Of a DNA stretch of 64,000 nt, positions 18,546 through 46,439 are shown piece by piece. The notes below the pieces were generated by a model that worked only from the letters and a program-made list of their open reading frames with translations, was not told the origin of the DNA and did no database searches. The number at the start of each line of letters is the position of its first letter. Position 1 is the stretch's first letter. A program made the position numbers and the translations under genes. The stretch spans positions 541 to 64,540 of the forward strand of contig JBAXKK010000003.1 in NCBI GenBank assembly GCA_037137395.1, written 5' to 3'. Source of the DNA: Elusimicrobiota bacterium (GTDB taxonomy: Bacteria; Elusimicrobiota; Elusimicrobia; Elusimicrobiales; UBA9959).

Positions 18546-18574
18546 GTTATAGCAGAGGAAACAACTAATTTCAA
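18546..18574 (-). promoter_or_regulatory. sigma70-type promoter
   Basis: The minus strand reads TTGAAA (18574-18569), a 17-nt spacer, then TATAAC (18551-18546). About 100 nt upstream of ATG 18443. Confidence 0.5.
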
Positions 18575-18640
18575 GGTCTAACCCACAAAAGGATGTGCGC
18601 GATCATTACAAGATATCATTTGGTTTACAGAGAAACCACG

Positions 18641-19243: not shown

Positions 19244-19289
19244 TTCAGCACCTTATCTGCATATGGCTTATGGCCTAAAGCATATGGCA
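19183..19289. repeat. imperfect inverted repeat (GCCATAGGC / GCATATGGC word family) bracketing a start codon
   Basis: Left arm is gccataggccataggccgtatgctttaagc; right arm is gcatatggcttatggcctaaagcatatggc. A stem of ~12 bp is possible (gtatgctttaag with cctaaagcatat). The SD and ATG 19243 lie between the arms. Confidence 0.6.
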
Positions 19290-19293
19290 TTGT

Positions 19294-26672: not shown

Positions 26673-27046
26673 TTTCCCTTCCTTGAGAGAAGCTGTCGGA
26701 TGCGCAGGCACAGCTCCTGAATATCGAACGGCTTTGTAAGGTATTCGTCCGCGCCGAGCGAGAAACCCTGTGTTTTTTCCTCCGCGGAGAGGAACCGGCC
26801 CGTCATCATTATAAGAATGAAATCCTTGGAGTAGCGTCTCAGTTCCTGACATATCTGAAAGCCGCTGGAATCAGGAAGCTGAATATCCATGATCACAACG
26901 TCGGGGGTGTGCTTCTTGGCCGATTCAATGCCGGACTTGGCGTTTCCGGCCTGAAGGCAGTCAAAACCCTCAAGGTCCAGGACCTCGGCCAGGCTTTCCC
27001 TCAGATGGGCGTCGTCATCAATAACCAGAATTTTTTTACCGGACAT
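26669..27046 (-). CDS. single-domain CheY-like response regulator
   Basis: KKILVIDDDAHL...DVVIMDIQLPDSSG...IMMTG...GADEYLTKPF; all canonical receiver residues are present. Confidence 0.9.
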   Translation of the reverse strand: MSGKKILVIDDDAHLRESLAEVLDLEGFDCLQAGNAKSGIESAKKHTPDVVIMDIQLPDSSGFQICQELRRYSKDFILIMMTGRFLSAEEKTQGFSLGADEYLTKPFDIQELCLRIRQLLSRKGK

Positions 27047-30044: not shown

Positions 30045-31385
30045 TTATTGCCCGCCGGCCTGATATTGCTCTATACGCTTCATACCGGCCTCGGCGTCAG
30101 AATTACCGGGATCCAATTGCTTGGCGATAGTCCACTCATCAAGGGCTTTTTCGTAGTTGGAATTTTGAAAATATTTCAAGCCTTCAAGGTAATGCTGCTG
30201 CGATGACAGCCGGTTCTCCTCAGTCGGGCCCTGGGCTTTGACGGGGCCATCCACGGAAGTTCCCTTTCGCTTGGCGTCCTCTTCCGCTTTTTTGCGCTCA
30301 GCCTCTTCATTCTTCCGCCGCTCTTCCTCATCTTTCGCGCGTTTCGCGGCCTCTTCAGAGCGGCGGCGTTTTTCTTCAGCTTCAAGGCGCATCTGTTCTC
30401 TGGCGCGGGAGATCAGCTTGTCGAGATAGGTGAGGTTTGCGGTGTAAGGCTTGGCTGTGCTCCACTCCCCTATAGCGTCGGTATATCTCCTCTCGCCGTA
30501 AAATTTTTTACCGCGCCCGATATAGCCCTGCTCTATTTCACTCTTAACCTCAGTCAGCAGCTTATTGGCTTTGGAATCGCCAGGCTGGATTTCCAGCACG
30601 CTCTTTAAACCTTCGTAAGCGTCCCGGAGCTTGCCCTGGGCGTAATATTCCAGCGCGCCCTTCAGCTTCTCGTTGGCTGACTCCTGACGAAGCTCGTCCT
30701 CAACCCTGGTAATATATTCCACGACCCTGGAATCTCTGGGCTTAATCAGCAGTGCGTTATAAAAATTATCCAGGGCCATTTTCAGGTCGCGCCTGGCGTA
30801 GAGATGAGAGCCTTTCTGAAAATAATAGTCGCGCAGGTCATCCTTCATCTTGGCCAGCCAGTATTTTGCCTTGATGTTGTTCGGGGAAAGCTTTACTACC
30901 TCTTCCATCTTCTTATGAGCGTCCAGGATCCTGCCCTCGTTGTACAGTGAGAGGGCGCTCTTAAAGCGGTCCTCCAGCATAAGTTTCTCGGATATGCCCG
31001 GGCGCAAAGAGCCGCGAAGCTGATTGGACGCCTCCAGCAGCATGCCGGCGTCCTCAAAATTGGGATCTATGGAAAGGATCTTATTCGCCAGATCGCGCGC
31101 GTCCTCGTAGTTTCCGGCGCGATAATAGTTGAAGGCGTTCTCATAAACATTCATGAGCATCTTGGATTGGATCTTAGCCTTTTCCAGCCTTATGGTCTCA
31201 ATAAAACGTTTTTTCTCCGAAAGCTCGCTCAGTGAACCCAAGCCGGTTTTCTGCAGATCAAGAAAAAGGGACTCCTCACTCTTCACCCGGGCTTTCTCCT
31301 GAGCGAAGGCGGCGGATTGGTGCAGGCACAAAAGCACGAAGGCGCAAAAACACGAGGTGACGGCATTCCTGACAAGATTTTTCAT
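30045..31385 (-). CDS. secreted TPR-repeat protein (TadD-like position) with a charged E/R/K helix
   Basis: Signal peptide; multiple TPR-like repeats (YYRAGNYEDARDLANKILSIDPN, LYNEGRILDAHKKMEEVVKLSPNN, YFQNSNYEKALDEWTIAKQLDPGN); an EAEEKRRRSEEAAKRAKDEEERRKNEEAERKKAEED segment. Confidence 0.75.
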   Translation of the reverse strand: MKNLVRNAVTSCFCAFVLLCLHQSAAFAQEKARVKSEESLFLDLQKTGLGSLSELSEKKRFIETIRLEKAKIQSKMLMNVYENAFNYYRAGNYEDARDLANKILSIDPNFEDAGMLLEASNQLRGSLRPGISEKLMLEDRFKSALSLYNEGRILDAHKKMEEVVKLSPNNIKAKYWLAKMKDDLRDYYFQKGSHLYARRDLKMALDNFYNALLIKPRDSRVVEYITRVEDELRQESANEKLKGALEYYAQGKLRDAYEGLKSVLEIQPGDSKANKLLTEVKSEIEQGYIGRGKKFYGERRYTDAIGEWSTAKPYTANLTYLDKLISRAREQMRLEAEEKRRRSEEAAKRAKDEEERRKNEEAERKKAEEDAKRKGTSVDGPVKAQGPTEENRLSSQQHYLEGLKYFQNSNYEKALDEWTIAKQLDPGNSDAEAGMKRIEQYQAGGQ

Positions 31386-34112: not shown

Positions 34113-36329
34113 CTACTTTTTGACACCGCGGGCGCGTTTTTGCTCTTCGGTCCAGAAAAGTTCCACAGGCATGTTGATGCCGTGGGTTTCGAAATCCTTG
34201 AAGAATTTGGGCGGGTCCCCGGTGGCCGAGAAATGGCCGATTACCCGGCCGGTATCTTTATCTATTCCGGTCTGGTGATATCTGTATATATCGTGCGTCG
34301 TTATCTGGTTCTCCTCACGGCCGGTAATCTCGGTGACTGCGGTGATCTTTCTGGTACCGTCGGAGAACCTGGTTAACTGCACCACCATATGTACGGCGGA
34401 AGCGATCATTTCCCGCAAAGCCCAGATAGGAAGATCGGCGCCGGCCATAAGACACATGGCTTCCATGCGGGTAAGGGCGTCGCGCGGAGTATTGGCGTGG
34501 ATGGTGGCGAGCGATCCTTCGTGACCAGTGTTCATGGCCTGCAACATATCCAAAGCCTCGGAACCGCGGACCTCTCCGACCACAATGCGGTCGGGACGCA
34601 TACGAAGGCAGTTCTTCACCAGGTCGCGTATGGTAATCTCGTTCTTGCCTTCGATGTTAGGCGGACGGCTTTCAAGGCGCACCCAGTGTTCCTGCTGCAG
34701 GCGCAACTCGGCCACGTCTTCCACGGTCACGATGCGCTCTTCTTCGGGTATATAGCTGGACAACATGTTGAGAAAAGTGGTTTTACCGGTACCGGTACCG
34801 CCCGAGATTATAATATCCTTGCGCAGCCTGACGCAGGCCTTCAGGAAATCAACGCAATCCTGCGAGATGCTGTTTTTTTTGACAAGCTCGGTATCGGTGA
34901 AAGGCTTGTTCGAAAATCTTCTTATGGTGAGCGTGGGCCCGGAAACGGCCAGCGGCGGGATAATGGCGTTGACGCGGGAACCGTCCTTAAGGCGGGCGTC
35001 CACCAGCGGCACGGATTCGTCTATGCGCCGGCCCAGGGGAGCCACGATCCTTTTCATAACCTGGACTATCTGCTCTTCGTTCCTGAACTTATATTTGGTC
35101 AGCGTCAGCTTACCGCCCCTTTCGATGAACACCCGGTCCGGGGCGTTTACCATTATTTCAGTGACGGCCGGATCCCTCATGAGCTCTTCCAGGGGACCCA
35201 GACCGAGGATCTCGTCCAGAAGCTCGTTTATAAATTTGGCGCGCTGTTCCCTGGTCAGCGGCATGGTGGCCTCTTTCTGCAGTAGGCCATTAATGATCAG
35301 ATCCACTTTTTTCCTGATCGCCTCGTTGGCGGCGGCGTTATCGTCAGTTATTTTAATGCGCTCCGTTTCAAGCGCCGAAACAACATCACGATGCATTTTC
35401 ATTTTAAGCTCATCCCAAAAATCAGGCACATCCACTCTGGCCACGGGTTGGGCGGGCTGCGGGCCGCCGGAAGCTGGCTCCGCCTCACGATCCAATTTCC
35501 GCCACAGCATATCCGAGCCATGAACAAATTCGGGGGAAGCGACGCTGGAAACCCACTGTTTCTCCACGGGATTTAGTTCCGAAAGACGGCCCATGAGCAC
35601 GCGCAGGATCTTCACCCACTGAGTGTTGGGCTGTTCCACTATAAGTATCTTGTTCTGATTCGTGTAGCCGGGCAGGGCGTCTTCCCAGGGCATGAAAGCC
35701 AAAATATCTTTATTCATCTGTTTGTAGAACTTCTCGACTTCATTGGGGCTTATGGCGCCCGGCATGTCGTAAAGATTACAAACAACCTCAAATTTGCTCA
35801 TGGGAAAATGAAGTTCGTTTATCTCCCGAAAAGTGGCTGCCGTGGCGTTGAGTGAGGAAACGTTGGAATTTGTGACCCAAAACACGATGTCCGAGATATC
35901 GAACGCGAAAACCTGCATGGGGAAATAGGGGTCGACGTCTATAAAAATATCAAAGGACTGCGAAAGCTTGGATAGTATGGGCAGAATGAGGTCCGGGGAC
36001 ATCTTGGAAACATCGGAGCGCTTCTTGGCCAGGGGCAGCACGCCCACGCCGTAAGACGAGATCGGTATCTTCCCCCTCAGCAGCGCGCCCAGGGCGCTGA
36101 CCGATTCGCGGCCCAGCGTTTTAATAATGTCGGCCATGGCCGGCGGGTTGAGGCCGAGGAGCATGGCCTGCTCCTGCCTGCACATGGGATCCAGAGGAAT
36201 AATAATAACATTCCGTTTTTGATAATTCGCCCAGGCCAGGGCCAGATTGACGCAAATGGAAGTTTTTCCCACGCCCTCTTTAGGGCCCGAAAATGTGATG
36301 ACTCGCGGCGCGGGATTAATATTTTCCAT
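34113..36329 (-). CDS. fused TadZ/CpaE-like ParA-type domain + TadA/CpaF secretion ATPase
   Basis: Residues 1-~290: MinD/ParA-like with a deviant P-loop, [21 protein letters not shown]. Residues ~300-738: CpaF-like, with Walker [15 protein letters not shown], Walker [13 protein letters not shown], and [14 protein letters not shown]. Confidence 0.88.
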
Positions 36330-36338
36330 AAAATTTAA

Positions 36339-36442
36339 GGTTACAGGTCGCAGATGACCGGTGGCAGGCGGATAACCGAAAAATGAAACTTAAAACACTT
36401 TTCACTTCGCTGCCTGTTACTTGCAACCTGCCACCTGCTACC
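36339..36442. repeat. intercistronic imperfect inverted repeat (GGTGGCAGG / CCTGCCACC words)
   Basis: ggttacaggtcgcagatgaccggtggcaggcgg ... cttcgctgcctgttacttgcaacctgccacctgctacc. Lies between the secretin and the ATPase genes. Confidence 0.65.
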
Positions 36443-37164
36443 TATTTAATTATATCGAACGTGACGAACAGGAACAGAGAGCTTTGTTCTTCCACCACGT
36501 CAGTGGAACTGAACAAAGCGCCCAGCAGCGGTATGCTGCCCAAAACCGGCACACGGCTCTTGGAAACGTTCCTATTGCTTCGCTTAAGCCCGCCGATAAC
36601 AAGCGTCTCGCCGCTTTTCAGCTCCACCTCGGTCTGGATCTGGCGGGTGATCATAGACGGGATGGTGGTGCCGCCCACGTTGACGGGCTTTGAATAATCC
36701 GGGTTGGAAACTTCAAGCTGCAGCTGCACGTCAACGGTATCCTTCTTTTCCGCGATAATCACCGGCAGGACGTTCAGGATGACACCGAATTTTTTAAATT
36801 CCGCGCCGACACCCTGCGCGTTGGAGTAGGGGACCGGGATCTCGCCACCCACGGTAAAATTGGCTTGGGTGCCGCTCTTTGTGATGACTTTGGGGTTTGA
36901 CAAGAGCTGGGCCTTACCTTCGGTCTCAAGAAGCCTGAGCTTGGTCGCCAGTGCTGTTCTTCTCTCAAAGTTGCCTATCGTCATAATTCCAGGGATATTT
37001 TTCTCTCCAAAATCAAACTCCTGGCTCCAGGAAAAACCGACGGCCTTCTGTATGGAGCCGCTTATCTCCACGATGTCAGCGCTGACGGCAACCATTTCGC
37101 TCTTCTGCGCCCAGACAGAGGGCGCAAGCGCCAATGTTATCACAAGAAAGTAAAAATTTCGCAT
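36442..37164 (-). CDS. minimal secretin (RcpA/CpaC-like), 240 aa
   Basis: Signal peptide MRNFYFLVITLALAPSVWA. Secretin core LLSNPKVITKSGTQANFTVGGEIPVP...GVILNVLPVI...TLVIGGLKRSNRNVSKSRVPVLGSIPLLGALF. Confidence 0.8.
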   Translation of the reverse strand: MRNFYFLVITLALAPSVWAQKSEMVAVSADIVEISGSIQKAVGFSWSQEFDFGEKNIPGIMTIGNFERRTALATKLRLLETEGKAQLLSNPKVITKSGTQANFTVGGEIPVPYSNAQGVGAEFKKFGVILNVLPVIIAEKKDTVDVQLQLEVSNPDYSKPVNVGGTTIPSMITRQIQTEVELKSGETLVIGGLKRSNRNVSKSRVPVLGSIPLLGALFSSTDVVEEQSSLFLFVTFDIIK

Positions 37165-37177
37165 AGTAATAATCTCC

Positions 37178-37250
37178 AGATTAAGGATTAAGTAGTAAGT
37201 GGTAAGGAATAAACTGCTATGCAGTTAAACCTTAATTCACTTAATCCTTA
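37178..37250. repeat. intercistronic hairpin, AAGGATTAAG family
   Basis: agattaaggattaagtagtaagtggtaaggaataaactgc-tat-gcagttaaaccttaattcacttaatcctta. Confidence 0.7.
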
Positions 37251-38003
37251 TTTTATAAGCCTTTTAAAGCTCGCTATCTCCATGGGGTGCAGCTCCACGT
37301 CTCCGAGACCCCTTACAATAATGGAAACATCTCCGACCTTCATCGAAAGTGAAAGATACTGCGCCTCGTTCGGATTAAGCGACAGGCTTATGACGCCCTT
37401 GTCGGAAAAAGCCTGATCAGCGGCCACCTGGGCTTCTTTCGCTTTAGCCTGGATAGAAGAAACGCCCTGGCCAAGGTTCGTTCCCACTCCCAACACCAGC
37501 ACATTCTGTAGAATGGTTGCGGTCACTTTTTCCTTCCGATTGTCCCCCATAGAGGCTTCAAAGGTCACAAGCACGTCTATCCTGTCGCCCGGTTTTATCA
37601 GGCGCAGCAGTTCGTTCTCCATAGGGAGGACGCAGCCCCGGTAGCCGGGCGGCACTTTAACGCTCAGGCCGGCCTCCGGACTTAAAGAGACGAGCGAAGA
37701 CAAAGTGATCTGGTTGCCCTTGGGAATCCTGACGGCAGTCACAAGATTGGATACCATCTTAATATCGGAAGCGCTTCGGATCTCCTGAGCGTCCTGCTGT
37801 ATGTACTGCCTGGGCATCTGCACAATTTCCACGAGATCTTCTTTAAGAATGGTGCGCGCCGGCAAGTCATACTTTGCGACCAGCACCTGGGCGGGCTCCT
37901 GCGCGTTGGCGATGGCCCGCTCTTTGGATGTCAGAACCCACCAGTAAATACTGGCGGCAAAAATGGCGAGAATTACCGGAACCAGGACACCTTTCTTTTC
38001 CAT
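37248..38003 (-). CDS. cpaB: Flp pilus assembly protein CpaB/RcpC
   Basis: N-terminal TM segment, SAF-like VLVAKYDLPARTILKEDLVEIVQMP, and an RcpC-like C-terminal domain. Confidence 0.8.
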   Translation of the reverse strand: MEKKGVLVPVILAIFAASIYWWVLTSKERAIANAQEPAQVLVAKYDLPARTILKEDLVEIVQMPRQYIQQDAQEIRSASDIKMVSNLVTAVRIPKGNQITLSSLVSLSPEAGLSVKVPPGYRGCVLPMENELLRLIKPGDRIDVLVTFEASMGDNRKEKVTATILQNVLVLGVGTNLGQGVSSIQAKAKEAQVAADQAFSDKGVISLSLNPNEAQYLSLSMKVGDVSIIVRGLGDVELHPMEIASFKRLIK

Positions 38004-38163: not shown

Positions 38164-38739
38164 CTACTGAAAGACCGGCTTCTCTATGGGCATCCTTACC
38201 CGCACCGTTATGTTTTTGATCCGCCGTCCCTTTGGCGGATCGGAGAAAAAATAGCTGGAGCCAGGGAAAACAAGTTTGGCCGGAAAAATCAGCGTCACCA
38301 GCAGATCCTCATTTGTGTGCGTGCTCGGATTCGCCGAAGCCTTTGGCTGCGGGTCCACGCCTGTAATCTCGCTGGTTACCACTAGTTGTATCTGGCCCGG
38401 ATCTTTAAACATCTTGGAAATCACCGATCGCATCTTGGATTCGGCCTTTCCCACATTTGAGGTGTCATCCGAACTGCCACCAGGAGGCCCGGCCACCAGC
38501 GAACCGATACGCGCCAGCTCATAGGCGCAATGATGCGCGAGGATGGTCTGGTAAGCGAGGTTCCCCAGCTCCATGATAAAAAATATCATCAGCATGAAAA
38601 CCGGCAGAACCAGAAGAAGCTCCACGGTAACCTGCCCGGCTCTTTTAATTTTCAGAGAACAAGCCACGAAACTCCGCCGGACATTAAAAACCCGGCAGAA
38701 AAACCGAAACAGTCCACACACGGACTCTTTGAAAGCCAC
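38164..38739 (-). CDS. TadE-like pseudopilin
   Basis: KRAGQVTVELLLVLPVFMLMIFFIMELGNLAY. The start is uncertain; GTG 38739 behind GGAG is preferred, and the track start is a TTG at 38763. Confidence 0.65.
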   Translation of the reverse strand: MAFKESVCGLFRFFCRVFNVRRSFVACSLKIKRAGQVTVELLLVLPVFMLMIFFIMELGNLAYQTILAHHCAYELARIGSLVAGPPGGSSDDTSNVGKAESKMRSVISKMFKDPGQIQLVVTSEITGVDPQPKASANPSTHTNEDLLVTLIFPAKLVFPGSSYFFSDPPKGRRIKNITVRVRMPIEKPVFQ

Positions 38740-38759
38740 AGGGTCTCCAATACTTAGAT

Positions 38760-38819
38760 GCAAAGCGATCCGGCAATTTAGAAGCTCATCTGAATTTCTT
38801 TACATCTAAATTGCTTTGC
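38760..38819 (-). promoter_or_regulatory. stem-loop immediately downstream of the flp gene (possible attenuator or mRNA stabiliser)
   Basis: The minus strand reads GCAAAGCAATTTAGA...TCTAAATTGCCGGATCGCTTTGC; no U-tract follows. Confidence 0.45.
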
Positions 38820-38839: not shown

Positions 38840-39079
38840 TTACTGGTTGCCGCCGCCGGAACCAAGAGATCCGGCCGCTCCGTTAATCATGCCCTGGATC
38901 TTGGTGAATAGCGCCGGCATATAATTCTTGAGAGCCATACCTGCTATAAGCACCACGCCAACGACTACAGCCAACATCAACAGGTATTCCACGGTGTTCT
39001 GCCCTTTCCTGTTTTTTGCCGCCAGCCGGCCATAGGCCTGTGATACGATGCCAACGCACATGGTGAACAGTCTGTTCAT
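38840..39079 (-). CDS. flp: Flp-family prepilin
   Basis: NRKGQNTVEYLLMLAVVVGVVLIAG (G/XXXXEY motif); 79 aa; Gly-rich C-terminus. Confidence 0.8.
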   Translation of the reverse strand: MNRLFTMCVGIVSQAYGRLAAKNRKGQNTVEYLLMLAVVVGVVLIAGMALKNYMPALFTKIQGMINGAAGSLGSGGGNQ

Positions 39080-39209: not shown

Positions 39210-39431
39210 TTACCAGGGATCTTCCTGGTACATCCTGAGTATTACAACTCCGCCGCTGGTGAATTGGCTGGCCAGGTACCACTGCAATACCCTATACACC
39301 GATGCAAAGGCGACTGTAAGAGCGACCGTCACCAGAAGGTACTCTATGGCAGTCTGGCCTCTGCGAAGGGTAGAGGATTTAGTGGAAGGAGTATAGGAGA
39401 AAAAGCGCTTACAATTGAATTTACGCTTCAT
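39210..39431 (-). CDS. flp: Flp-family prepilin (divergent second copy)
   Basis: LRRGQTAIEYLLVTVALTVAFASVY; 73 aa. Confidence 0.75.
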   Translation of the reverse strand: MKRKFNCKRFFSYTPSTKSSTLRRGQTAIEYLLVTVALTVAFASVYRVLQWYLASQFTSGGVVILRMYQEDPW

Positions 39432-39471: not shown

Positions 39472-40479
39472 TTAGAACTGCATCTTAAGCATGATCTGGT
39501 TGGACTTTCCGAGCGCGCCATAAGGTACCATGGCGTAATCAAACGACATTCCGAAGCCCATTGCCTGCGCGCTGTATATCCCTATTCCAAAAGTCCAGCC
39601 GCTGGTCTCGCTCAGTCCCAGCGTGTCAAGCGTTTTGTCGTCGTAATTTTTACCGTAGCTGTCCGCGCGAGTATAGCCGACGCGCATGCTCACGCGGCCG
39701 ACTTGCAGCAGCTCCTCCGGAAGATTAAATTCCATCCCGACGCCGGATAGATTTTTACGATCAGAATAGGCTTTTGATTCCACCAGCGCCGTGAGAAACG
39801 AATTCAAAGAGAAAGCGATGCCGGTGCGCTGAATCTTCACAACCTGATCTGTTTTGCCTGAAAAATTAGCGCCCGACCAGCCGAACGAGAGTTTACGCCC
39901 CAGTTTCAAAACCAGGCCGGCGTCAAAAACGAGATTATTATACTTTGTGGTATAGTTGTCTTCCATCACGCTCTTGGCGCTGACGCCAAGGAGCAGCTTT
40001 TCCAGAAAAAAACTTTTAGCCAGGGTGATCGTGGCATATCCATTGCGCACTTTAACATCCTCGCCGTACTGCGGAATTCCCTCCTGGTCCCTTACATCAA
40101 ACCCTTCCATACCGTAATAGGCGACATTTACACCCACGACCGACTGCCCGATGGGGTGCACGTACGCGATGGACTGGCCGGAATAATCCTGAAACCAGCT
40201 CAGGTGTGAAAAACTCGCCTCGCGCAGCTGCGACGAAGCGACTCCCGCCGGATTTATACTCATGGCTTCCGTCCCCTCCATTATAGAGACGCCACAGTTG
40301 CCAAGCGCCTGCGCCCTGGGACTGCCGGTAGGAATCTTCATAAACACGGCGCCGGACGTTCCCGCTTTCGCGTCCGCGGCGTGAAGCAGTGCGGAAGGGT
40401 CGGAGATCAGGGCAGGGGCAAAAACAAACGCCGCCACCCAAAACATTCTTTTTAAAACCGCGCTTTTCATGGCTTTCAT
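39472..40479 (-). CDS. PorV/PorQ-family-like outer-membrane beta-barrel
   Basis: Signal peptide. N-terminal GTSGAVFMKIPTGSPRAQALGNCGVSIMEGTEAMSINPAGVA follows the PorV/PorQ-type pattern (GtsgaqFLki..gaRa.amGga......a...NPAG). Alternating beta-strand pattern ending in ...MLKMQF. Start set at ATG 40479 behind GAGAGGA. Confidence 0.65.
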   Translation of the reverse strand: MKAMKSAVLKRMFWVAAFVFAPALISDPSALLHAADAKAGTSGAVFMKIPTGSPRAQALGNCGVSIMEGTEAMSINPAGVASSQLREASFSHLSWFQDYSGQSIAYVHPIGQSVVGVNVAYYGMEGFDVRDQEGIPQYGEDVKVRNGYATITLAKSFFLEKLLLGVSAKSVMEDNYTTKYNNLVFDAGLVLKLGRKLSFGWSGANFSGKTDQVVKIQRTGIAFSLNSFLTALVESKAYSDRKNLSGVGMEFNLPEELLQVGRVSMRVGYTRADSYGKNYDDKTLDTLGLSETSGWTFGIGIYSAQAMGFGMSFDYAMVPYGALGKSNQIMLKMQF

Positions 40480-40499
40480 AAAATCCTCTCGATCTGATT

Positions 40500-40593
40500 C
40501 GTAAAGCGTGAAGCGCAAATCAGAAAGAGTCTAAAACAAATTTTTACAAAATCAAACTTATAACCCTTTACGACTTACGCTTTCCGCTTTACG
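40500..40593. repeat. intercistronic imperfect inverted repeat (CGTAAAG / CTTTACG words)
   Basis: cgtaaagcgtgaagcg ... ctttacgacttacgctttccgctttacg. Confidence 0.6.
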
Positions 40594-40597
40594 CACA

Positions 40598-43500
40598 TTA
40601 CGGTACAAGTATCTTCTTGACTGTCTGGAACGCGCCTTTCGCGCCGTCCCGGCCTTCCAGCCTGATTACCGCGAAGTACACTCCGGGAGCGACAGCATTT
40701 CCGGAGCTGTTTTTCTTATCCCATGGAATGGTTTTAACCACCGAGCCGGCCAACAGACCGGAGCTGTAACTATATACCAGGTCTCCGACCAGATTATAAA
40801 TTTTTATGGTGAGTTCGGAATTAACATATATCGGGATATGGAACCAGCCACTATTCCCCGTGTACGGATTGGGGGCGAACCAGATATCCTGCGCGAGCTG
40901 CGCGTCATCGCCGCTCGGGCCGTTTACCACCGGGATATTGTCTATTATGGAGTCTGAGGCTAATCCCGCGTTACCCGACACCGTTCCGTTAAGCATACTT
41001 ACACTCTCCGTACTGGTGGAGCCGTACACTTTAAAAACATAGTTGCCGTCCGGCACCCTTGAAAGCGTCAGGTCCGTACCGTCCCAGTACTCGGAAATCT
41101 GGGTTCTGGCCGGGCGCACCCCCACGAACATTTTTACGAGCTTGTCAGGAGGACAATTCACCGAGGGTTTCACGCATGAAGCCAGAGAAGTGCCCGGTTT
41201 ATAAATCTTAGTGACAACCGTCATCGGCTCGGAAACCTGATACGATACAATGCCGGGCGACTCAAGGGTCTGCGGCGTTATAGCCATGTCAAAGATCCTG
41301 AGCGGATCGACGTCTATTGTCTGCTGCACCGTGGCCACTGAGAGCAGTTTGTAGCCGATATCGCGGGCGACCACCCTTACGACATAACTGTTCCAGGTCA
41401 CAAAGTCGGTGTTGGGGCATGCCGGGGTATTGGTGCATCGCCCGTCCCAATAATCTCTCTGATCCATATCCCCGTCCCTGATCTCGCCGTTTATAACATC
41501 CGCGAAGACCTGCAGGTTGCCTCCGGCGGGCGGTATTCCCAGTATCTGGATCGTGACTGAAGACTGGCGGGTGAGCAGATACTCTATCTCGTAAGGCGGC
41601 AGCTTGATGGTGTCAGAAGAGTTGTACATCACGGGAATGTTGGGAATCACCTCAAAAAGCGTGAACGCAATCTGCCCCCTGGACACGTCCAGGTATCCGT
41701 AAACCCTATCCGTGGCGTACATCGCCTGAGCGGTGCCGGTGGAGCCGGCCACCAGGGTGAACGGATATCGGCCATCGGCCACCAGTTCGCCGTTATTATC
41801 GCGGCCGTCCCAGTATTCGGTTATCTTGAAGCGGCCCGGCCGCATGCCGGCCGCGCTGTAGACCGGATTGGCGGACAGACCAGACACCGGGTCGCGCACA
41901 TCCGGCGGCCAGCTGGTGTAAGGATCTATCACAATATCCGGCTCGTAAACACTAAGCGTTATAAACATCGTCTGCGACATCTCAAAACTGATATTCGCGG
42001 TATCGGAAGTTCCGCCCAAAAGCGGCGTCGTCTTGACATCTATTATGCGGAACATGTTAACGGGGGTCCTGACGGTCGTTCTGGTGAATCTGGTTGTGAT
42101 GCAGGAGGCCGGGTCCTCGGCGATTAACTCAGCCTGATAAACTCCGGCGGGGACATACTCCCCGAAGTCGTCCTTGCCATCCCAAAGTTCGCGGTTGGAA
42201 AAATTAGCGGCCCTTGTCTCGCGGTTTATAAGGTGACGGACCGGAGTCACGCTGTTGTCCGGGAAGATATTCAGCGTGAACAGAGCGTCCCGGGCCGGCG
42301 TATAGCGGAAATAAAACGGATCCAGGCCGGCCACTGACGGCGAAGACCCCATTACCGTGGAAGAAGGGGATATCAGGCTGACCACCAAGCCCCTTGCCAC
42401 AGGCAGCGCTCCGACCCAGAGGCGCTTGTTCCTTATAACACTCGCGCCCGAAGGCAGCTCAGCCCAGATGGCGTATACATATTGGCCGTCGCAGACCGGA
42501 TTGCCGTTGGCGTCGCGGCCGTCCCATATGGTCGAGACAACCTGACGCCCCGGCTGCTGCTCGGTTATCAGCCTGAGACGCGTCCCGTTGAAAGCCGGAT
42601 CGTGAGTGACGTTATTGAGATCGCTAAAAAACGTATCCGGCGTATAGATGCCGACATAAACCGTGGCGGACTCGGTGAGCATATAAGATATGACCGCCTG
42701 GTCGGTGGAGCTGGCCCCCAATGGTTTGATAGCTATATCGGTTATTTGCAGCGGATCGTGGGAAATTGTGGTGTAGTAAGTATAGGCATAGTCTATGCCT
42801 GTCCAATTATCCTGCGACTCGGCATTAATCTCGGCCCTGTAGACGCCCGGAGGGGCCATCTTGCCGGTATTGTCGCGGCCATCCCAAAAATCGCCGTTAG
42901 TCAGCGTGCCGTCAGGCGTGCCTTCTCCGACCCTTGGAATATAGTTCAACAGCTGACGCGCAAACGGCAATACGCCGCCGACATTTTCGGCCGAATATAT
43001 AGTAATAGTGGTGGTCGCGTCCTTGCTGAGCCGGTAAAGTATGTTATACGGCTGGGCCGCCACGCCCGTGATCTTTCCCACCACCGTGGGGCTCGAACGC
43101 ACCGTGTGGATATTTATGACGTCCACCTGTATAGGTATCTGGTTCTGGCCGGGGAAAGCCGCCGTCTGCTCTATAGAAATGTTTCCCACAGTCTCGCTGA
43201 CCTCGTTAGTCTTAACCTTGGCCCGGAAGCCGAATTGGCCGTTGGTCTTGCCGAAGATACCGTTTAAATTATAGGAACCGTCCCAGGCGGTACAAAAATA
43301 ATTATTAGTTCCGCCGATAGTCTGCTCCGCGGGTGCTCCTGAAGTCTGACTGCAGGTGCCGATGTCAAACATACTGACCGTTTTTATGGGCGGAGTGGAG
43401 GCCGGGTCAAGCGGATTTCCGCCGCTAGTGAATTTAAAAATTTCAAAACTCAGTTCATTAATACCGAATGTGGTGGGAGTGCTGGCGACCACGCATTTTA

Positions 43501-43759
43501 TCTTGGCGCACAGGGCCAGACAACCGCCGGGGTAACTACTCTGCGGCTTTTCATACTCTATGCGGGAAGAATTTCTCCACACGTCATTGCCGGAGGTCAC
43601 AAAAGACACCTTATTGCCGATGCCTGCGTCCTTACAATAGCCGAAGCCTCCGTCCCCCACATTTATATCGGCCACAAAAAGCTGCTGAGCGCTGGCCGCC
43701 GGAACGAAAAAAATTCCGAACAGAACGGCTGTAAGAATCAGAAATATTTTATTATTCAT
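40598..43759 (-). CDS. 1053-aa secreted protein of ~8 FlgD-Ig-like modules ending in a T9SS-type C-terminal sorting-domain-like module
   Basis: Signal peptide. A module-end motif recurs: FWDGRDNTGKMAPPGVY, IWDGRDANGNPVCDGQY, LWDGKDDFGEYVPAGVY, YWDGRDNNGELVADGRY, YWDGRCTN, YWDGTDLTLSRVPDGNY. The last ~90 aa read FAPNPYTG...LTIKIYNLVGDLVY...IPWDKKNSSGNAVAPGVYFAVIRL...KKILVP. Confidence 0.75.
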   Translation of the reverse strand: MNNKIFLILTAVLFGIFFVPAASAQQLFVADINVGDGGFGYCKDAGIGNKVSFVTSGNDVWRNSSRIEYEKPQSSYPGGCLALCAKIKCVVASTPTTFGINELSFEIFKFTSGGNPLDPASTPPIKTVSMFDIGTCSQTSGAPAEQTIGGTNNYFCTAWDGSYNLNGIFGKTNGQFGFRAKVKTNEVSETVGNISIEQTAAFPGQNQIPIQVDVINIHTVRSSPTVVGKITGVAAQPYNILYRLSKDATTTITIYSAENVGGVLPFARQLLNYIPRVGEGTPDGTLTNGDFWDGRDNTGKMAPPGVYRAEINAESQDNWTGIDYAYTYYTTISHDPLQITDIAIKPLGASSTDQAVISYMLTESATVYVGIYTPDTFFSDLNNVTHDPAFNGTRLRLITEQQPGRQVVSTIWDGRDANGNPVCDGQYVYAIWAELPSGASVIRNKRLWVGALPVARGLVVSLISPSSTVMGSSPSVAGLDPFYFRYTPARDALFTLNIFPDNSVTPVRHLINRETRAANFSNRELWDGKDDFGEYVPAGVYQAELIAEDPASCITTRFTRTTVRTPVNMFRIIDVKTTPLLGGTSDTANISFEMSQTMFITLSVYEPDIVIDPYTSWPPDVRDPVSGLSANPVYSAAGMRPGRFKITEYWDGRDNNGELVADGRYPFTLVAGSTGTAQAMYATDRVYGYLDVSRGQIAFTLFEVIPNIPVMYNSSDTIKLPPYEIEYLLTRQSSVTIQILGIPPAGGNLQVFADVINGEIRDGDMDQRDYWDGRCTNTPACPNTDFVTWNSYVVRVVARDIGYKLLSVATVQQTIDVDPLRIFDMAITPQTLESPGIVSYQVSEPMTVVTKIYKPGTSLASCVKPSVNCPPDKLVKMFVGVRPARTQISEYWDGTDLTLSRVPDGNYVFKVYGSTSTESVSMLNGTVSGNAGLASDSIIDNIPVVNGPSGDDAQLAQDIWFAPNPYTGNSGWFHIPIYVNSELTIKIYNLVGDLVYSYSSGLLAGSVVKTIPWDKKNSSGNAVAPGVYFAVIRLEGRDGAKGAFQTVKKILVP

Positions 43760-43948: not shown

Positions 43949-44710
43949 TCAATCGGTTTTCTGCTTGTTTTCCAGAGGCAAGCTTTTCCGGTCACAAAGT
44001 TCTCTCTCCCCCTTGCGCGCGGCGTCAAGGTTGAATTTAGCGACAGAAAGCCGGAACTCCAGATCAGCGGATTTTTCTTCGGCTTCCTTTATCCTTTTCC
44101 CTGAGTCAGCCCTGGCGCGCCTTTCCGCCATTAGTTCGGAAAGAGTTTTTTCCGAAGCTTCTCTGGCGGCTAAAAATTTACGTTCCATAACAACAATCGC
44201 GTCTTTCAGATTGGCTTGTTCCACAACCGATCTCGTGAATTTCTCCCGCCACTCCTCGCTCCTGACCTTAAAAACTTCCAGCCGCGCGGAGAGGTTGGCT
44301 ATCTCTATTCTGGTCCGTTCCAGAACCTCAGTCAGAAGCGCAACCTCGCGGGCATGCCTTCTCTTCTGGGCCTCCAGCATCTTTCCGGACTCTCCCAGGC
44401 TTAAAGCCGCGGACAATTCTTCACTGATGGCTTTTTCCCGCGCCTCCTGACACGACTGTTTAAGCTCGCCGAGTTGCGCGCGGGTATCGCACAGTTGGGC
44501 CGACAGGTCGCGGATGCCGGACTCTTTGACTTCCAATAAATATTTCCAATCGCTTTCGGCCTTAGAAAAATTGTTTTTGAGAAACTGAATAGTTTCAACC
44601 TGAGATTCTGAAAAACGTAAAGACGAAGCAGAAAATTCGGGGATGTAATCCTTCCCCGACGCTTTCTTCCAGAGTTCACCTAATTGTCTGTCTATTTCGC
44701 TGCTTTCCAT
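43949..44710 (-). CDS. cytoplasmic coiled-coil protein (first gene of the Tad operon)
   Basis: E/K/R/L/A-rich heptad-like sequence throughout; no TM segment or signal peptide. Confidence 0.55.
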   Translation of the reverse strand: MESSEIDRQLGELWKKASGKDYIPEFSASSLRFSESQVETIQFLKNNFSKAESDWKYLLEVKESGIRDLSAQLCDTRAQLGELKQSCQEAREKAISEELSAALSLGESGKMLEAQKRRHAREVALLTEVLERTRIEIANLSARLEVFKVRSEEWREKFTRSVVEQANLKDAIVVMERKFLAAREASEKTLSELMAERRARADSGKRIKEAEEKSADLEFRLSVAKFNLDAARKGERELCDRKSLPLENKQKTD

Positions 44711-44921: not shown

Positions 44922-46439
44922 TCACTCTTTAACCGTGTTTTTTTTCTCTTCCGCTTTCAGCTTCTCAACTTCTCCGGCCAGAGCTATCCCTCCGCGGCCG
45001 TGAGATTTCACCCAATAGAGGGCGTCATCGGCTTTTTCAAGCAGGGTTTCCATGGATGCGGCGTCAGCGGGAAACGTAGATATGCCCAGACTCACCGAAA
45101 CGCTGAGTTCACGGGTCTTTGAAAAGGCCACCGGGATTTTTATTTCACGAATCTCAGCGGCGAGACGCCTGGCCAATTTTCCGGCCTCTTCACCGGTGGC
45201 CTGGGGCAGCAGAATTAGAATCTCGTCCCCCCCGTAGCGGCAGGGAAAGTCTATCTTGCGCAAATTGGAAAGTATGACTCTGCCAATTTCCTTCAGCACC
45301 CGGTCGCCTATCTGGTGACCGTAAGTGTCGTTAACTTCCTTAAAATAGTCCACATCAACCCAGATCATGGCGAGCGGCTGCTTAAAGCGCTCAGCGCGGT
45401 AGAATTCTTCCTGAAAGCGCTGGTTGAAATACCGCCGCAGCGGCAGCTTAGTCAGTTCGTCAAAAAGTGAAAGTTCCTCAACCTTATCAAAGAGCCTCAC
45501 ATTGTCCAGCGCCAGGCCGATCTGCCCCGCGAAAGATTTCAGCATGGCAAGCTCTCCCTGCTCGATCTTCTGCTGGCTTAACAGGTTATCCACTATCAGC
45601 AGACCGATAGTGACACCCTGCACGACCAGCGGCATGTAAAGAACGCATTCCTTGTAGCGCTCCATAAACACGCCCGAACTGTGGCCCAACACGATGTCCG
45701 CGAAGCGGTGCGCCCCGGCCTCCAGTGGTATTTCCTCGTATGCGATGCTCTTTATCTGACCGCGGATATCGGAGCTGAGCTCGCCCTTTAACTTCTCGGC
45801 TTTCTCGTCAATCAGGTAGAGTCTTACGCGGTCGAAGCCGAAATAGGTTTGGATACCCGTCAGTATATGTTTAAAACTCTCCCGAACCCGGAGTGAATTG
45901 GCGAAGATCTCGGTCAGTTCGGTAATCGCGCCCAGATTCTTGGCGTATTTTTTATTAAGCCCCACAAATTCCGCTTTGTAATAACTGCGCATAAAGTCGC
46001 CGAGGTGCTCGTGCGCGGCCCCGGCCTCAGCCGGAGAAAAGCGCCTTTTACCAGGAAAACGTTCCAGCTTTATGAGACCCTGCAGCGGGGCTTCGCGGAG
46101 AGCGGACGAGGAATATATTTCGATCAGGAACGGCACCAGCAGGAAATGACCGGCCTTGTTCCTGAAAACCACGGGCTTAAGCGAGCCGAGAGCGGACGCC
46201 GCCGGCGAATCAGGCGACGGCCGGACGCTTTCCTCGGCTTCAAAAGATACGCCGCCCGCGCGGCGCATCATCAGGCGTAGAAGCGAATTTTTTTCATCAT
46301 GATAGTAAAAAGATACGCGGTCAGCGGCGAAAAGCTTTGCCGCGGATTCCAGCAACCCCTTCAGGAAAGCTTCCCGGCTTTCGTAGAAAACGGGGTTTTT
46401 TCCGCCAATGCCGCTCAGGATTTTTTTCATCTTAATCAT
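44922..46439 (-). CDS. GAF-domain diguanylate cyclase (GGDEF)
   Basis: C-terminal DELTKLPLRRYF...DVDYFKEVNDTYGHQIGDRVLK...RYGGDEILILLP, with an RxxD-like site upstream; the N-terminal ~330 aa is GAF-like. Confidence 0.88.
   Translation of the reverse strand: MIKMKKILSGIGGKNPVFYESREAFLKGLLESAAKLFAADRVSFYYHDEKNSLLRLMMRRAGGVSFEAEESVRPSPDSPAASALGSLKPVVFRNKAGHFLLVPFLIEIYSSSALREAPLQGLIKLERFPGKRRFSPAEAGAAHEHLGDFMRSYYKAEFVGLNKKYAKNLGAITELTEIFANSLRVRESFKHILTGIQTYFGFDRVRLYLIDEKAEKLKGELSSDIRGQIKSIAYEEIPLEAGAHRFADIVLGHSSGVFMERYKECVLYMPLVVQGVTIGLLIVDNLLSQQKIEQGELAMLKSFAGQIGLALDNVRLFDKVEELSLFDELTKLPLRRYFNQRFQEEFYRAERFKQPLAMIWVDVDYFKEVNDTYGHQIGDRVLKEIGRVILSNLRKIDFPCRYGGDEILILLPQATGEEAGKLARRLAAEIREIKIPVAFSKTRELSVSVSLGISTFPADAASMETLLEKADDALYWVKSHGRGGIALAGEVEKLKAEEKKNTVKE

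What the first reader, a model, noticed from the sequence alone, without database searches (positions are those of the whole stretch)
39472..43759. PorV/PorQ-like barrel paired with a giant CTD-bearing FlgD-Ig repeat protein inside a Tad operon
The 1053-aa protein has about eight modules, each ending in xWDG(R/K/T)D..G..V..G.Y.
- Its last ~90 aa (NPYTG...LTIKIYNLVGDLVY...GVYFAVIRL...KKILVP) look like a T9SS type-A C-terminal sorting domain.
- The next gene encodes a barrel whose N-terminus (GTSGAVFMKIPTGSPRAQALG...INPAGVA) follows the PorV/PorQ family pattern.
- In Bacteroidota, PorV shuttles CTD cargo, but no SprA, PorK, PorL, PorM or PorN gene is in this window.
- A dedicated cargo-plus-shuttle pair cotranscribed with pilins suggests a surface adhesin whose display is coupled to a Tad pilus. 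I do not know of such an arrangement having been described.
Basis: partly seen in the sequence, partly recalled or inferred. Interest (0 to 1): 0.7.

Follow-up and report, generated by a model that had tools for sequence, protein, structure and literature searches.

The report
CTD protein–PorV-like barrel pair heading Tad operon
In an Elusimicrobia genome, a large repeat protein with a type-IX-secretion-style C-terminal tag and a matching PorV/PorQ-like outer-membrane barrel are always encoded together at the head of a Tad pilus gene cluster. This phylum is not known to have type IX secretion, so the tag-plus-barrel pairing may work without that machinery.

Summary
Minus-strand ORF 40598-43759 encodes a 1053-aa Sec-exported protein with eight ~120-aa WDG modules (FlgD_ig). 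Only the last module matches T9SS C-terminal-domain (CTD) models, at threshold level, and 25 of 26 orthologues do the same.

ORF 39472-40479 encodes a 14-stranded FadL-superfamily barrel. It is a divergent relative of the PorV/PorQ family: PorV_fam E 1e-18, below NCBI's cutoff. All 60 distant relatives tested hit PorV/PorQ models, and solved PorV gives the best TM-score.

The organism belongs to Elusimicrobiales. The order cargo, barrel, Flp, Flp, TadE, RcpC, secretin, TadZ/A, TadB, TadC, TPR is invariant in 69 species. In a control ascertained through the secretin, 38/38 loci have the barrel and 32/32 the cargo.

PorV/PorQ/PorP-like barrels also sit directly behind other CTD-bearing proteins in other Elusimicrobiota, without Tad genes. 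The pair is therefore one fixed instance of a wider two-gene cassette.

My best reading is that the barrel anchors the CTD protein at the outer membrane, as PorQ anchors PorZ, as an accessory of the pilus system. No T9SS core gene lies in the window. Genome-wide absence, the export route and the physical interaction are untested.

The parts
40598..43759 (-). Cargo gene: 1053-aa secreted FlgD-Ig-repeat protein (the range includes the stop codon)
   Evidence: ORF; translation; FlgD_ig 84.7 bits in 6 stretches; full-length orthologues of 37-94% identity at the same position in all related loci
43688..43759 (-). Sec signal peptide of the cargo (MNNKIFLILTAVLFGIFFVPAASA|QQ)
   Evidence: Read directly from the translation; the cleavage site is inferred from the sequence pattern
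43055..43687 (-). Cys-containing N-terminal region of the cargo (aa 25-235). Its second half, aa 156-235, is among the best conserved segments.
   Evidence: Column conservation 0.83-0.84 over aa 156-235 in 46 orthologues; no Pfam family assigned
40895..43054 (-). About six FlgD_ig-like modules of ~120 aa, each ending in WDG(R/K/T)D..G..V..G.Y
   Evidence: Motif positions and spacing; FlgD_ig stretches; FlgD models in NCBIfam
40601..40894 (-). C-terminal T9SS-type CTD-like module (aa 956-1053): APNPY...IKIYNLVGDLVY...WDKKNSSGNAVAPGVYFAVIRL...KKILVP-COOH
   Evidence: TIGR04183 25.1 bits on the isolated domain and 25/26 orthologues hit it; 25/26 hit CHU_C; 13/26 hit the PorZ C-terminus and 11/26 the PorU C-terminus. 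KKIL[IV]P is the exact C-terminus in 44/46 orthologues, and an HMM of this domain scores the internal repeats below 7 bits.
39472..40479 (-). Barrel gene: 335-aa PorV/PorQ-like 14-stranded outer-membrane barrel (signal peptide aa 1-34, N-terminal plug segment with NPAG motif, terminal F)
   Evidence: PorV_fam E 1.4e-18. AF2 model pLDDT 90.1 with 14 strands. Foldseek gives the best TM-score to PorV 8gl6_F/6h3i_F, 0.61-0.63. The family profile hits PorV 6h3i_F at 1e-33 against TodX at ~1e-5. All 60 distant relatives hit PorV/PorQ models.
39210..39431 (-). Flp-like pilin 1 (73 aa, class III signal motif G/QTAIEY)
   Evidence: ORF and translation; orthologues carry Flp1_like/Class_IIIsignal Pfam hits
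38840..39079 (-). Flp-like pilin 2 (79 aa, G/QNTVEY)
   Evidence: 65-91% identical across species
38164..38763 (-). TadE-like pseudopilin (true start codon uncertain)
   Evidence: Pfam TadE, 5.3e-11
37248..38003 (-). RcpC/CpaB
   Evidence: Pfam RcpC 2.2e-14 and SAF
36442..37164 (-). Minimal secretin (240 aa; essentially the secretin domain only)
   Evidence: Pfam Secretin 9.5e-43 at aa 78-240; also 240 aa in orthologues
34113..36329 (-). TadZ(CpaE)-TadA(CpaF) fusion ATPase
   Evidence: CbiA plus T2SSE; the same fusion in L002 and L003
31411..34082 (-). TadB (32475-34082) and TadC (31411-32304) platform proteins
   Evidence: T2SSF in both
30045..31385 (-). TPR protein (TadD-like position)
   Evidence: TPR families; syntenic in all loci
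43949..44710 (-). 253-aa coiled-coil remnant of a 581-aa gene that is full-length in most other species
   Evidence: tblastn: only residues 1-241 of the L001 581-aa protein match the window; weak SMC-like coiled-coil hit
44922..46439 (-). GAF-GGDEF diguanylate cyclase upstream; syntenic in many species and a possible regulator
   Evidence: Pfam GGDEF 3.5e-44 and GAF; synteny

Best explanation
The two genes encode a dedicated outer-membrane pair.

Proposed mechanism:
1. The 1053-aa protein is exported by Sec (signal peptide read from the sequence).
2. Its last ~100 residues form a T9SS-type CTD.
3. The 335-aa barrel is a divergent PorV/PorQ-family, 14-stranded FadL-superfamily outer-membrane protein.
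4. The barrel binds that CTD and holds the chain of Ig-like modules, with its conserved N-terminal head, at the cell envelope and most likely on the surface. This is the way PorQ anchors PorZ, PorV anchors PorU, and PorP/SprF anchor type-B CTD proteins in Bacteroidota.
5. The pair is a hard-wired accessory of the Elusimicrobiales Tad-type pilus locus and is probably co-expressed with the Flp pilins, giving an adhesion or contact module.

Shown here: homology of both parts; strict one-to-one gene pairing; complete co-occurrence with this type of Tad locus; and recurrence of the same CTD-plus-barrel cassette elsewhere.

Inferred, not shown: CTD-barrel binding, surface exposure, co-transcription, the role in adhesion, and the route across the outer membrane. 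Candidate routes are the operon's own secretin, the barrel with BAM, or an unseen translocon.
For: CTD homology:
- Only the terminal module hits T9SS CTD models: CHU_C 40.4 bits and TIGR04183 21.4 on the full protein, 25.1 on the isolated domain.
- 25/26 orthologues hit both models; 13/26 hit the PorZ C-terminus (best E 2e-12) and 11/26 the PorU C-terminus.
- The C-terminus KKIL[IV]P is fixed in 44/46 orthologues.

Barrel homology:
- PorV_fam E 1.4e-18 and no FadL hit.
- All 60 relatives of 25-35% identity hit PorV_fam, PorQ, PorV and PorV2 models.
- The family profile hits solved PorV at 1e-33 against TodX at ~1e-5.
- The AF2 model (pLDDT 90) has 14 strands and its best TM-scores, 0.61-0.63, are to PorV.

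Linkage:
- Identical gene order in 69 species found by scanning with the barrel.
- In loci ascertained through the secretin, 38/38 have the barrel and 32/32 the cargo.
- Distance matrices of cargo, barrel and Tad genes correlate at r 0.75-0.94, consistent with joint vertical inheritance.

Generality of the pairing:
- L073, L074 (two pairs), L075, L076, L078/L079, L080 and L077 each have a PorV/PorQ/PorP-like barrel directly behind a protein with the same kind of C-terminus.
- Type-A-like ends sit next to PorV/PorQ-like barrels; type-B-like 'TPN(G/S)DG.ND' ends sit next to PorP/TraF_2-like barrels.

Precedent for barrel-anchored CTD proteins: PMC7463736, PMC9143113.
Against: - No direct evidence of interaction.
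- The mirror-tree signal is weak: partial r 0.36 for barrel against CTD.
- The barrel scores below NCBIfam's PorV_fam cutoff (67.6 against 90), and a profile built from Elusimicrobiales sequences alone finds no solved PorV.
- In the T9SS, CTD proteins need SprA and PorKLMN to cross the outer membrane. Here no export route is identified.
- The cargo keeps a constant length and domain number and is fairly conserved. That fits a structural machine part as well as it fits an adhesin.
- The promoter/terminator scan gave no more sites than shuffled sequence, so co-transcription is not shown.
Confidence: 0.5

Rival explanations
1. The pair is a structural part of the Tad outer-membrane complex rather than an adhesin display unit. 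The barrel would partner, pilot or gate the unusually small secretin. The Ig-repeat protein would form a fixed-length periplasmic or extracellular scaffold or cap for the pilus.
For: Co-occurrence with this type of Tad locus is 100%. The secretin is only 240 aa and lacks periplasmic N-domains. Cargo length and module number are nearly constant, with strongly conserved segments. Most species carry a second weak PorV-family barrel (484 aa) and a coiled-coil membrane protein in the same operon. 14 of 60 family relatives also hit the pilus-linked FadL-type model FilD.
Against: The same kind of cassette occurs without any Tad genes in other lineages. Cargo and barrel evolve faster than the core Tad proteins: mean p-distance 0.41-0.45 and 0.36, against 0.17-0.30. 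As far as I know, no Tad system is known to need such parts.
Confidence: 0.22
2. It is an ordinary T9SS cargo plus a PorV/PorQ paralogue. A full T9SS is encoded elsewhere in the genome, and proximity to the Tad genes reflects only co-regulation.
For: Both parts are homologous to T9SS parts. Other Elusimicrobiota encode proteins that NCBI names PorV/PorQ or PorP/SprF. The rest of the genome could not be searched.
Against: Reviews describe the T9SS as confined to the FCB superphylum or Bacteroidota (PMC11205867, PMC7463736). NCBI taxonomy does not list an FCB group in the Elusimicrobiales lineage. No paper in the held library links Elusimicrobia with a T9SS. No T9SS core family was found in 64 kb. 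One-to-one cassettes with gaps of about 10 nt argue for dedicated partners rather than a shared shuttle.
Confidence: 0.12
3. The barrel is a FadL-type channel for hydrophobic compounds, functionally unrelated to the neighbouring repeat protein. The last module of that protein is just one more FlgD_ig repeat.
For: Foldseek's lowest E-value is for FadL (2r89, 1.4e-9). The NPA-containing N-terminal plug is a FadL-superfamily trait. The terminal module shares the W-D-x-x-x-x-G-x-x-V-x-x-G-x-Y motif with the internal repeats and also hits FlgD models.
Against: There is no Toluene_X/FadL hit by sequence, whereas PorV-family hits are strong by transitivity. TM-scores are higher to PorV. T9SS CTD models and the orthologue-derived CTD HMM hit only the terminal module. 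Adjacency to CTD proteins recurs in unrelated contexts.
Confidence: 0.06

Closest known systems
PorQ-PorZ and PorV-PorU anchoring pairs of the Porphyromonas gingivalis T9SS attachment complex
   Same: A 14-stranded FadL-type barrel of the PorV/PorQ family is paired with a surface protein that keeps a type-A-like CTD. The cargo's C-terminus hits the C-termini of PorZ and PorU. PorU and PorZ are anchored by PorV and PorQ respectively (PMC7463736).
   Different: The organism is outside the FCB group. No SprA/PorKLMN is seen nearby. The two genes are adjacent and fixed at the head of a Tad pilus locus. The barrel is smaller (335 aa) and scores below the family cutoff. The cargo is a FlgD_ig-repeat protein, not a sortase or an A-LPS carrier.
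Type-B CTD proteins with PorP/SprF-like barrels (SprB-SprF, PG1035-PorP)
   Same: The cargo and its dedicated barrel form a cognate complex (PMC9143113); that their genes are commonly adjacent is from my own knowledge. Pfam CHU_C hits the cargo above its gathering score. True type-B-like pairs exist in other Elusimicrobiota (L074b, L075).
   Different: The window's CTD starts with APNPY, which is type-A-like, and lacks the TPNGDG.ND motif of the type-B-like ends printed. The barrel hits the PorV/PorQ models and not the PorP model TIGR03519.
Tad (tight adherence) pilus loci (Flp, TadE/F, RcpC/CpaB, RcpA/CpaC, TadZ/A/B/C/D)
   Same: All core components except the prepilin peptidase lie directly downstream in one direction. 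Tad systems in Elusimicrobia have been noted before (PMC6668835).
   Different: As far as I know, described Tad loci have no PorV-like barrel or CTD protein. Here the secretin is 240 aa and TadZ is fused to TadA.
PorV/PorQ-family proteins annotated in bacteria without a T9SS (for example Brachyspira BP951000_RS08455; Treponema UPF0164)
   Same: They belong to the same broad family. The window barrel has a weak UPF0164 hit. Their function outside the T9SS is unknown (bioRxiv 10.1101/2025.01.03.631275).
   Different: In the passages I read, those reports discuss a FadL-like transport role and mention neither a partner CTD protein nor a pilus locus.

Membership tests
T9SS type-A C-terminal sorting domain (TIGR04183 / PF18962) | HMM score at or above the curated cutoff | tested here: inconclusive
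   TIGR04183 scores 21.4 bits on the full protein (cutoff 23) and 25.1 on the isolated last 120 aa. 25/26 orthologues hit it at E<=0.01. Pfam Por_Secre_tail hits only 6/26.
T9SS type-A C-terminal sorting domain (TIGR04183 / PF18962) | About 70-100 aa at the extreme C-terminus of a Sec-exported protein, with conserved start (PNP) and end (K-x-x-x) motifs | tested here: met
   aa 956-1053; APNPY start; KKIL[IV]P is the C-terminus in 44/46 orthologues; a signal peptide is present.
T9SS type-A C-terminal sorting domain (TIGR04183 / PF18962) | Export through SprA/PorKLMN and processing by PorU | not testable with these tools
   None of these families is in the 64-kb window.
T9SS type-B CTD (CHU_C PF13585 / TIGR04131) with a PorP/SprF partner | CHU_C hit plus the TPNGDG.ND-type start, and a PorP/SprF-family barrel next door | tested here: not met
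   CHU_C scores 40.4 bits on the full protein but 25.3 (below 27) on the isolated domain. The start is APNPY, not TPNGDG. The barrel does not hit TIGR03519.
PorV/PorQ family (NCBIfam NF033709) | Score at or above the curated cutoff (90 bits) | tested here: not met
   67.6 bits, E 1.4e-18, covering mainly the N-terminal half of the model. It is therefore filed as a divergent relative, not a certified member.
PorV/PorQ family (NCBIfam NF033709) | Homology to bona fide PorV/PorQ that is stronger than to FadL/TodX | tested here: met
   All 60 phmmer relatives hit the PorV_fam, PorQ, PorV and PorV2 models. Profile A3 hits PorV 6h3i_F at 1.1e-33 against TodX at 4e-6. No Toluene_X hit. Caveat: distant relatives make up most of the rows in A3, and the Elusimicrobiales-only profile A1 finds no PDB match.
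PorV/PorQ family (NCBIfam NF033709) | 14-stranded FadL-type barrel with an N-terminal plug | tested here: met
   AF2 pLDDT 90.1, pTM 0.81, 14 strands, helical N-terminal segment with NPAG. TMq 0.63 and 0.61 to PorV 8gl6_F and 6h3i_F.
PorV/PorQ family (NCBIfam NF033709) | Binds a CTD and docks on the SprA translocon | not testable with these tools
   No multimer prediction was available and no SprA is in the window.
FadL/OmpP1/TodX transporters (PF03349) | Sequence match to the family model | tested here: not met
   No hit at E<=1. The only similarity is fold-level.
Tad pilus system | Flp pilin with the G/xxxxEY motif, TadE-like pseudopilin, RcpC/CpaB, secretin, TadZ, TadA, TadB, TadC | tested here: met
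Tad pilus system | Dedicated prepilin peptidase (TadV/CpaA) | tested here: inconclusive
   No A24 peptidase among the ORFs of 150 aa or more that were scanned. Shorter ORFs and the rest of the genome were not searched.

The most novel reading that the evidence does not exclude
CTD-protein plus PorV/PorQ/PorP-like-barrel cassettes are a self-sufficient, T9SS-independent module for surface display or secretion, widespread outside the FCB superphylum. They may be the evolutionary precursor of the T9SS shuttle and attachment pairs. In Elusimicrobiales one such cassette has become an obligate part of a Tad machine. Its minimal secretin might even serve as the export route, linking a type-IV-filament system to a T9SS-style sorting signal.
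Probability: 0.25. Interest if true: 0.85.

Novelty: new variant of a known kind. Interest (0 to 1): 0.62.

Why it matters
T9SS CTD signals and PorV/PorQ/PorP barrels are currently understood only as parts of the roughly 20-component Bacteroidota/FCB machine.

A strictly conserved CTD-barrel gene pair in a phylum not known to have that machine, and the same kind of pair next to many different large proteins, suggests the CTD-barrel interaction can stand alone. It may predate the T9SS.

It also gives a testable function to the 'PorV/PorQ family' proteins annotated in non-T9SS bacteria. It adds unexpected outer-membrane components to a Tad pilus system. Elusimicrobium minutum is cultured and a MAG assigned to that species carries an orthologous locus (L063), so biochemical tests are feasible.

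Tried and rejected
- A profile of Elusimicrobiales barrels only (A1) against PDB sequences gave no meaningful hit. A broader family profile (A3) was needed.
- The first AF2 run, with the shallow alignment, gave pLDDT 58.8 and was discarded. The second, with 83 diverse sequences, gave 90.1.
- A homology search with the CTD alone returned only 4 short fragments, so it cannot say how many other architectures carry this CTD.
- An orthologue-derived CTD HMM run against all ORFs of 72 loci plus the window found only cargo orthologues and paralogues, plus one 25-bit hit. These flanks all cover the same neighbourhood, so this is not a genome survey.
- The promoter/terminator scan gave counts equal to shuffled sequence and is uninformative on operon structure.
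- The mirror-tree test gave barrel-CTD partial r 0.36. This is the highest value for the barrel, but it is weak and the control is partly circular.
- Literature searches for Elusimicrobia with T9SS, and for PorV with Tad, found nothing relevant. I guessed a PMC id for the E. minutum genome paper and nothing is held under it.
- I considered and rejected a flagellar role for the FlgD_ig hits, because the phylum lacks flagella (PMC11257099).
- I considered and rejected a type-B CTD / PorP pairing for this locus (see the membership test).

Full report
**1. What is at the coordinates**

The minus strand carries ORF 40598-43759 (1053 aa) and ORF 39472-40518. The second most plausibly starts at the ATG at 40479, giving 335 aa.

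The large protein begins with a typical Sec signal peptide, MNNKIFLILTAVLFGIFFVPAASA|QQ. It contains eight W-D-[G/K] motifs at aa 159, 292, 412, 526, 650, 771, 892 and 1013, spaced 114-133 aa apart. Pfam FlgD_ig scores 84.7 bits over six stretches, and several NCBIfam FlgD models hit the same motif region. All genomes of this phylum lack flagella (PMC11257099), so these are Ig-like modules, not flagellar parts.

**2. The C-terminal module**

T9SS C-terminal-domain (CTD) models hit only the last module.
- On the full protein, CHU_C matches aa 969-1036 at 40.4 bits (gathering cutoff 27). TIGR04183 matches aa 963-1034 at 21.4 bits (cutoff 23). The C-termini of the PorU and PorZ models also match.
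- On the isolated last 120 aa, TIGR04183 scores 25.1 bits, at or above cutoff, and CHU_C 25.3, below cutoff.
- Of 26 orthologous C-termini, 25 hit TIGR04183 and 25 hit CHU_C. Thirteen hit the PorZ C-terminus (best E 2e-12) and 11 the PorU C-terminus.

In an alignment of 46 orthologues the module has a fixed start (APNPY) and a fixed end: KKIL[IV]P is the last residue run in 44 of 46. An HMM built from this module scores the internal repeats below 7 bits, so it is a distinct terminal domain although it shares the WD..G..V..G.Y motif with them. Its start is type-A-like. The type-B start 'TPN(G/S)DG.ND' seen in other cassettes is absent.

**3. The barrel**

By sequence:
- NCBIfam PorV_fam gives 67.6 bits, E 1.4e-18, below the 90-bit cutoff. 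PorQ gives 37 bits.
- Pfam gives only a weak UPF0164 hit and no Toluene_X/FadL hit at E<=1.
- An exhaustive phmmer search of 1.84 billion representatives found 2098 relatives at E<=1e-3. All 60 tested relatives of 25-35% identity hit the PorV_fam, PorQ, PorV and PorV2 models.
- A profile of the window protein plus close and distant relatives (A3) hits solved Flavobacterium johnsoniae PorV (6h3i_F) at 1.1e-33, against about 1e-5 for TodX/TbuX. A profile of the Elusimicrobiales clade alone (A1) finds no solved structure, so the link to PorV is transitive.

By structure:
- AlphaFold2 with the deep alignment gives pLDDT 90.1 and pTM 0.81, with 14 strands and an N-terminal helical plug segment carrying NPAG.
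- Foldseek places FadL and PorV at the top. The best TM-scores are to PorV: 0.63/0.58 for 8gl6_F and 0.61/0.59 for 6h3i_F. FadL and TodX mostly score 0.48-0.56.

The barrel is therefore a FadL-superfamily barrel of the PorV/PorQ lineage. It is divergent enough to miss NCBI's trusted cutoff. The refutation condition 'scores better as FadL/OmpP1' is not met.

**4. Organism and surroundings**

Close homologues of the barrel (62-92% identity) are all from Elusimicrobia or Elusimicrobiales MAGs. The NCBI lineage places the order in phylum Elusimicrobiota and lists no FCB group.

Directly downstream on the same strand lie, in order:
- two Flp-like pilins (GQTAIEY, GQNTVEY);
- TadE;
- RcpC/CpaB;
- a 240-aa secretin;
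- a TadZ-TadA fusion;
- TadB and TadC;
- a TPR protein.

Upstream are a 253-aa coiled-coil ORF and a GAF-GGDEF protein.

The rest of the window holds a ribosomal-protein/SecY/Adk block, S41 and M23 peptidases, two-component systems, a TolC-RND pump, a GH2 enzyme and a few unknowns. No T9SS core family was found among the ORFs of 150 aa or more that I scanned.

**5. The pairing is not incidental**

A scan of one genome per species with the barrel alignment returned 69 loci, all Elusimicrobiota. They include a MAG assigned to Elusimicrobium minutum and a rumen Elusimicrobium. Wherever the contig extends, the gene order is identical: cargo, barrel, Flp, Flp, TadE, RcpC, secretin, TadZ/A, TadB, TadC, TPR, HAMP (gene calls).

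That sample was ascertained through the barrel, so I repeated the test from the other side. A metagenome scan with a secretin alignment returned 80 loci, with secretin identity down to 62%. All 38 loci with at least 3.8 kb upstream have the barrel, and all 32 with at least 7.2 kb upstream have the cargo.

Pairwise-distance matrices of cargo, barrel and Tad proteins correlate at r 0.75-0.94, which is consistent with joint vertical inheritance. Cargo and barrel evolve faster than the Tad core (mean p-distance 0.41-0.45 and 0.36, against 0.17-0.30), as expected for envelope-exposed parts.

**6. The pair belongs to a wider class**

I searched with a profile of distant barrel relatives and inspected their contigs.
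- L073 (Elusimicrobia): a 1654-aa beta-helix/NHL protein, then 8 nt later a 302-aa PorV-like barrel.
- L074 (Endomicrobiales): a 2842-aa Big_13/fn3/FlgD_ig/Por_Secre_tail protein, an inserted group II intron reverse transcriptase, then a 327-aa PorV-like barrel. The same locus has a 1023-aa fn3/CHU_C protein followed by a 548-aa barrel that hits both PorV_fam and PorP_fam.
- L075 (Elusimicrobiota): a 924-aa fn3/CHU_C protein overlapping a 548-aa PorP_SprF barrel.
- L076: a 551-aa Por_Secre_tail protein followed by a 308-aa PorV-like barrel.
- L078 and L079: FG-GAP/Por_Secre_tail proteins of about 1060 aa followed by barrels of 317-318 aa.
- L080: a BNR/FlgD_ig protein followed by two PorV-family barrels.
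- L077 (Margulisiibacteriota): a 671-aa protein with a CTD-like end followed by a 582-aa PorV-like protein.

The printed C-termini show two matching classes. '[YF]PNP...I.IY..G.LV...W.....G.Y.Y......K..V..' ends sit next to PorV/PorQ-like barrels. 'TPN(G/S)DG.ND' ends sit next to PorP/TraF_2-like barrels. One context (L081) had a TonB-dependent receptor upstream instead.

None of these other cassettes is next to Tad genes. The Tad-linked pair is thus one fixed, lineage-wide instance of a recurrent two-gene cassette.

**7. Mechanism**

In the T9SS, PorV binds type-A CTDs. PorU and PorZ keep their CTDs and are anchored on the surface by PorV and PorQ (PMC7463736). Type-B CTD proteins are held by PorP/SprF-like barrels (PMC9143113).

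A dedicated one-to-one gene pair matches these anchoring pairs better than it matches a general shuttle. My best reading, at confidence about 0.5, is as follows.
- The barrel binds the CTD of its neighbour.
- It holds the chain of about seven Ig-like modules, with the conserved Cys-containing N-terminal head, at the outer membrane and probably outside the cell.
- The pair acts as an adhesion or contact accessory made together with Flp pili. It is possibly under c-di-GMP control, given the syntenic GGDEF gene.

What is shown: homology, pairing and co-occurrence. What is inferred: binding, topology, co-transcription and function.

The route across the outer membrane is open. It could be the operon's own minimal secretin, the barrel with BAM, or an unseen translocon.

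**8. Rivals**

- (a) The pair is a structural part of the Tad outer-membrane complex (confidence about 0.22). For: total co-occurrence, a 240-aa secretin lacking N-domains, constant cargo length, and further envelope genes in the operon of most species. Against: similar cassettes exist without Tad genes.
- (b) It is an ordinary T9SS cargo with a full T9SS elsewhere in the genome (about 0.12). Against: the reported FCB restriction (PMC11205867, PMC7463736) and the absence of any literature link. I could not search whole genomes, so this remains open.
- (c) The barrel is an unrelated FadL-type channel and the last module is a plain repeat (about 0.06). Sections 2, 3 and 6 contradict this.

**9. 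Comparison and novelty**

The closest known systems are PorQ-PorZ and PorV-PorU, then PorP/SprF with type-B cargo, and the Tad pilus itself.

The differences are:
- a phylum outside the FCB group;
- adjacency of cargo and barrel;
- fixation at the head of a Tad locus;
- a small, sub-threshold barrel;
- no visible translocon.

PorV/PorQ-family proteins have been noted in non-T9SS bacteria such as Brachyspira, where a FadL-like transport role was proposed (bioRxiv 10.1101/2025.01.03.631275). I found no description of CTD-barrel cassettes outside the FCB group, or of one inside a Tad locus.

I rate this a new variant of a known kind, with interest 0.62. It is a robust comparative-genomic pattern with a testable hypothesis, but no functional evidence yet.

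Noticed in passing
window 36442-37164 (-): The Tad secretin is only 240 aa: a signal peptide, a short linker and the secretin domain (aa 78-240), with no N0-N3-type periplasmic domains. It is also 240 aa in the three related loci with gene calls (L001-L003), and its sequence is highly conserved across the order (66-96% identity).
   Followed up: partly
window 34113-36329 (-): TadZ/CpaE (CbiA/ParA-like) and TadA/CpaF (T2SSE) are fused into one 738-aa protein. The same fusion appears in L002 and L003. In L001 the gene call splits it.
   Followed up: partly
window 43949-44710 (-); L001:3288-6687: Most Elusimicrobiales carry two more genes between GGDEF and the cargo. One is a 484-aa weak PorV_fam barrel (28 bits) with a C-terminal coiled coil. 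The other is a 581-aa protein with an N-terminal coiled coil followed by a hydrophobic, probably membrane-spanning segment and a C-terminal domain without any family match. In the window and its closest relative L004 the first gene is missing and only the first ~240 aa of the second survive as this 253-aa ORF.
   Followed up: partly
window 17133-20553 (-): A 200-aa ORF (18641-19243) has a weak TadE-like N-terminus (17.3 bits). It is flanked by 436-aa and 419-aa ORFs with no family hit. This may be a second pseudopilin cluster about 18 kb from the Tad locus.
   Followed up: no
L013:1095-4751, L015:489-4205, L026:388-4728, L030:755-4444, L034:1747-5802, L060:2067-5771: Six species carry a second, longer (1219-1447 aa) paralogue of the cargo with the same CTD, upstream in the same locus. 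Only one copy of the Tad-linked barrel was detected in those loci.
   Followed up: no
CTD alignment of cargo orthologues, e.g. L028, L013, L003: Many species have a 10-25-aa insertion carrying a Cys pair (..NIDGSGKC....T...ACWP..) inside the CTD. The window lineage lacks it. Gut Elusimicrobium-like genomes have a still longer version.
   Followed up: no
L074:8472-9782: A group II intron reverse transcriptase (RVT_1 + GIIM) is inserted between a 2842-aa CTD protein and its PorV-like barrel in an Endomicrobiales MAG.
   Followed up: no
window 54001-55899 (+): This 632-aa ORF combines TetR-like hits at aa 10-76 with TolC hits at aa 226-631. It is either two in-frame genes merged by mechanical ORF calling or an odd fusion. 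RND adaptor and pump genes follow it.
   Followed up: no
window 13196-15535 (-) and 25152-26852 (-): A 779-aa protein has only a weak coiled-coil (Filament) hit and a 566-aa protein has no family hit. Both lie near the two-component genes that flank the Tad region.
   Followed up: no
L082 (Ga0247842_10000217, 130 kb) and L004 (CAIPTO010000043.1): These public contigs are 92-99% identical to the window at protein level across the locus. They probably represent the same or a sister population.
   Followed up: no
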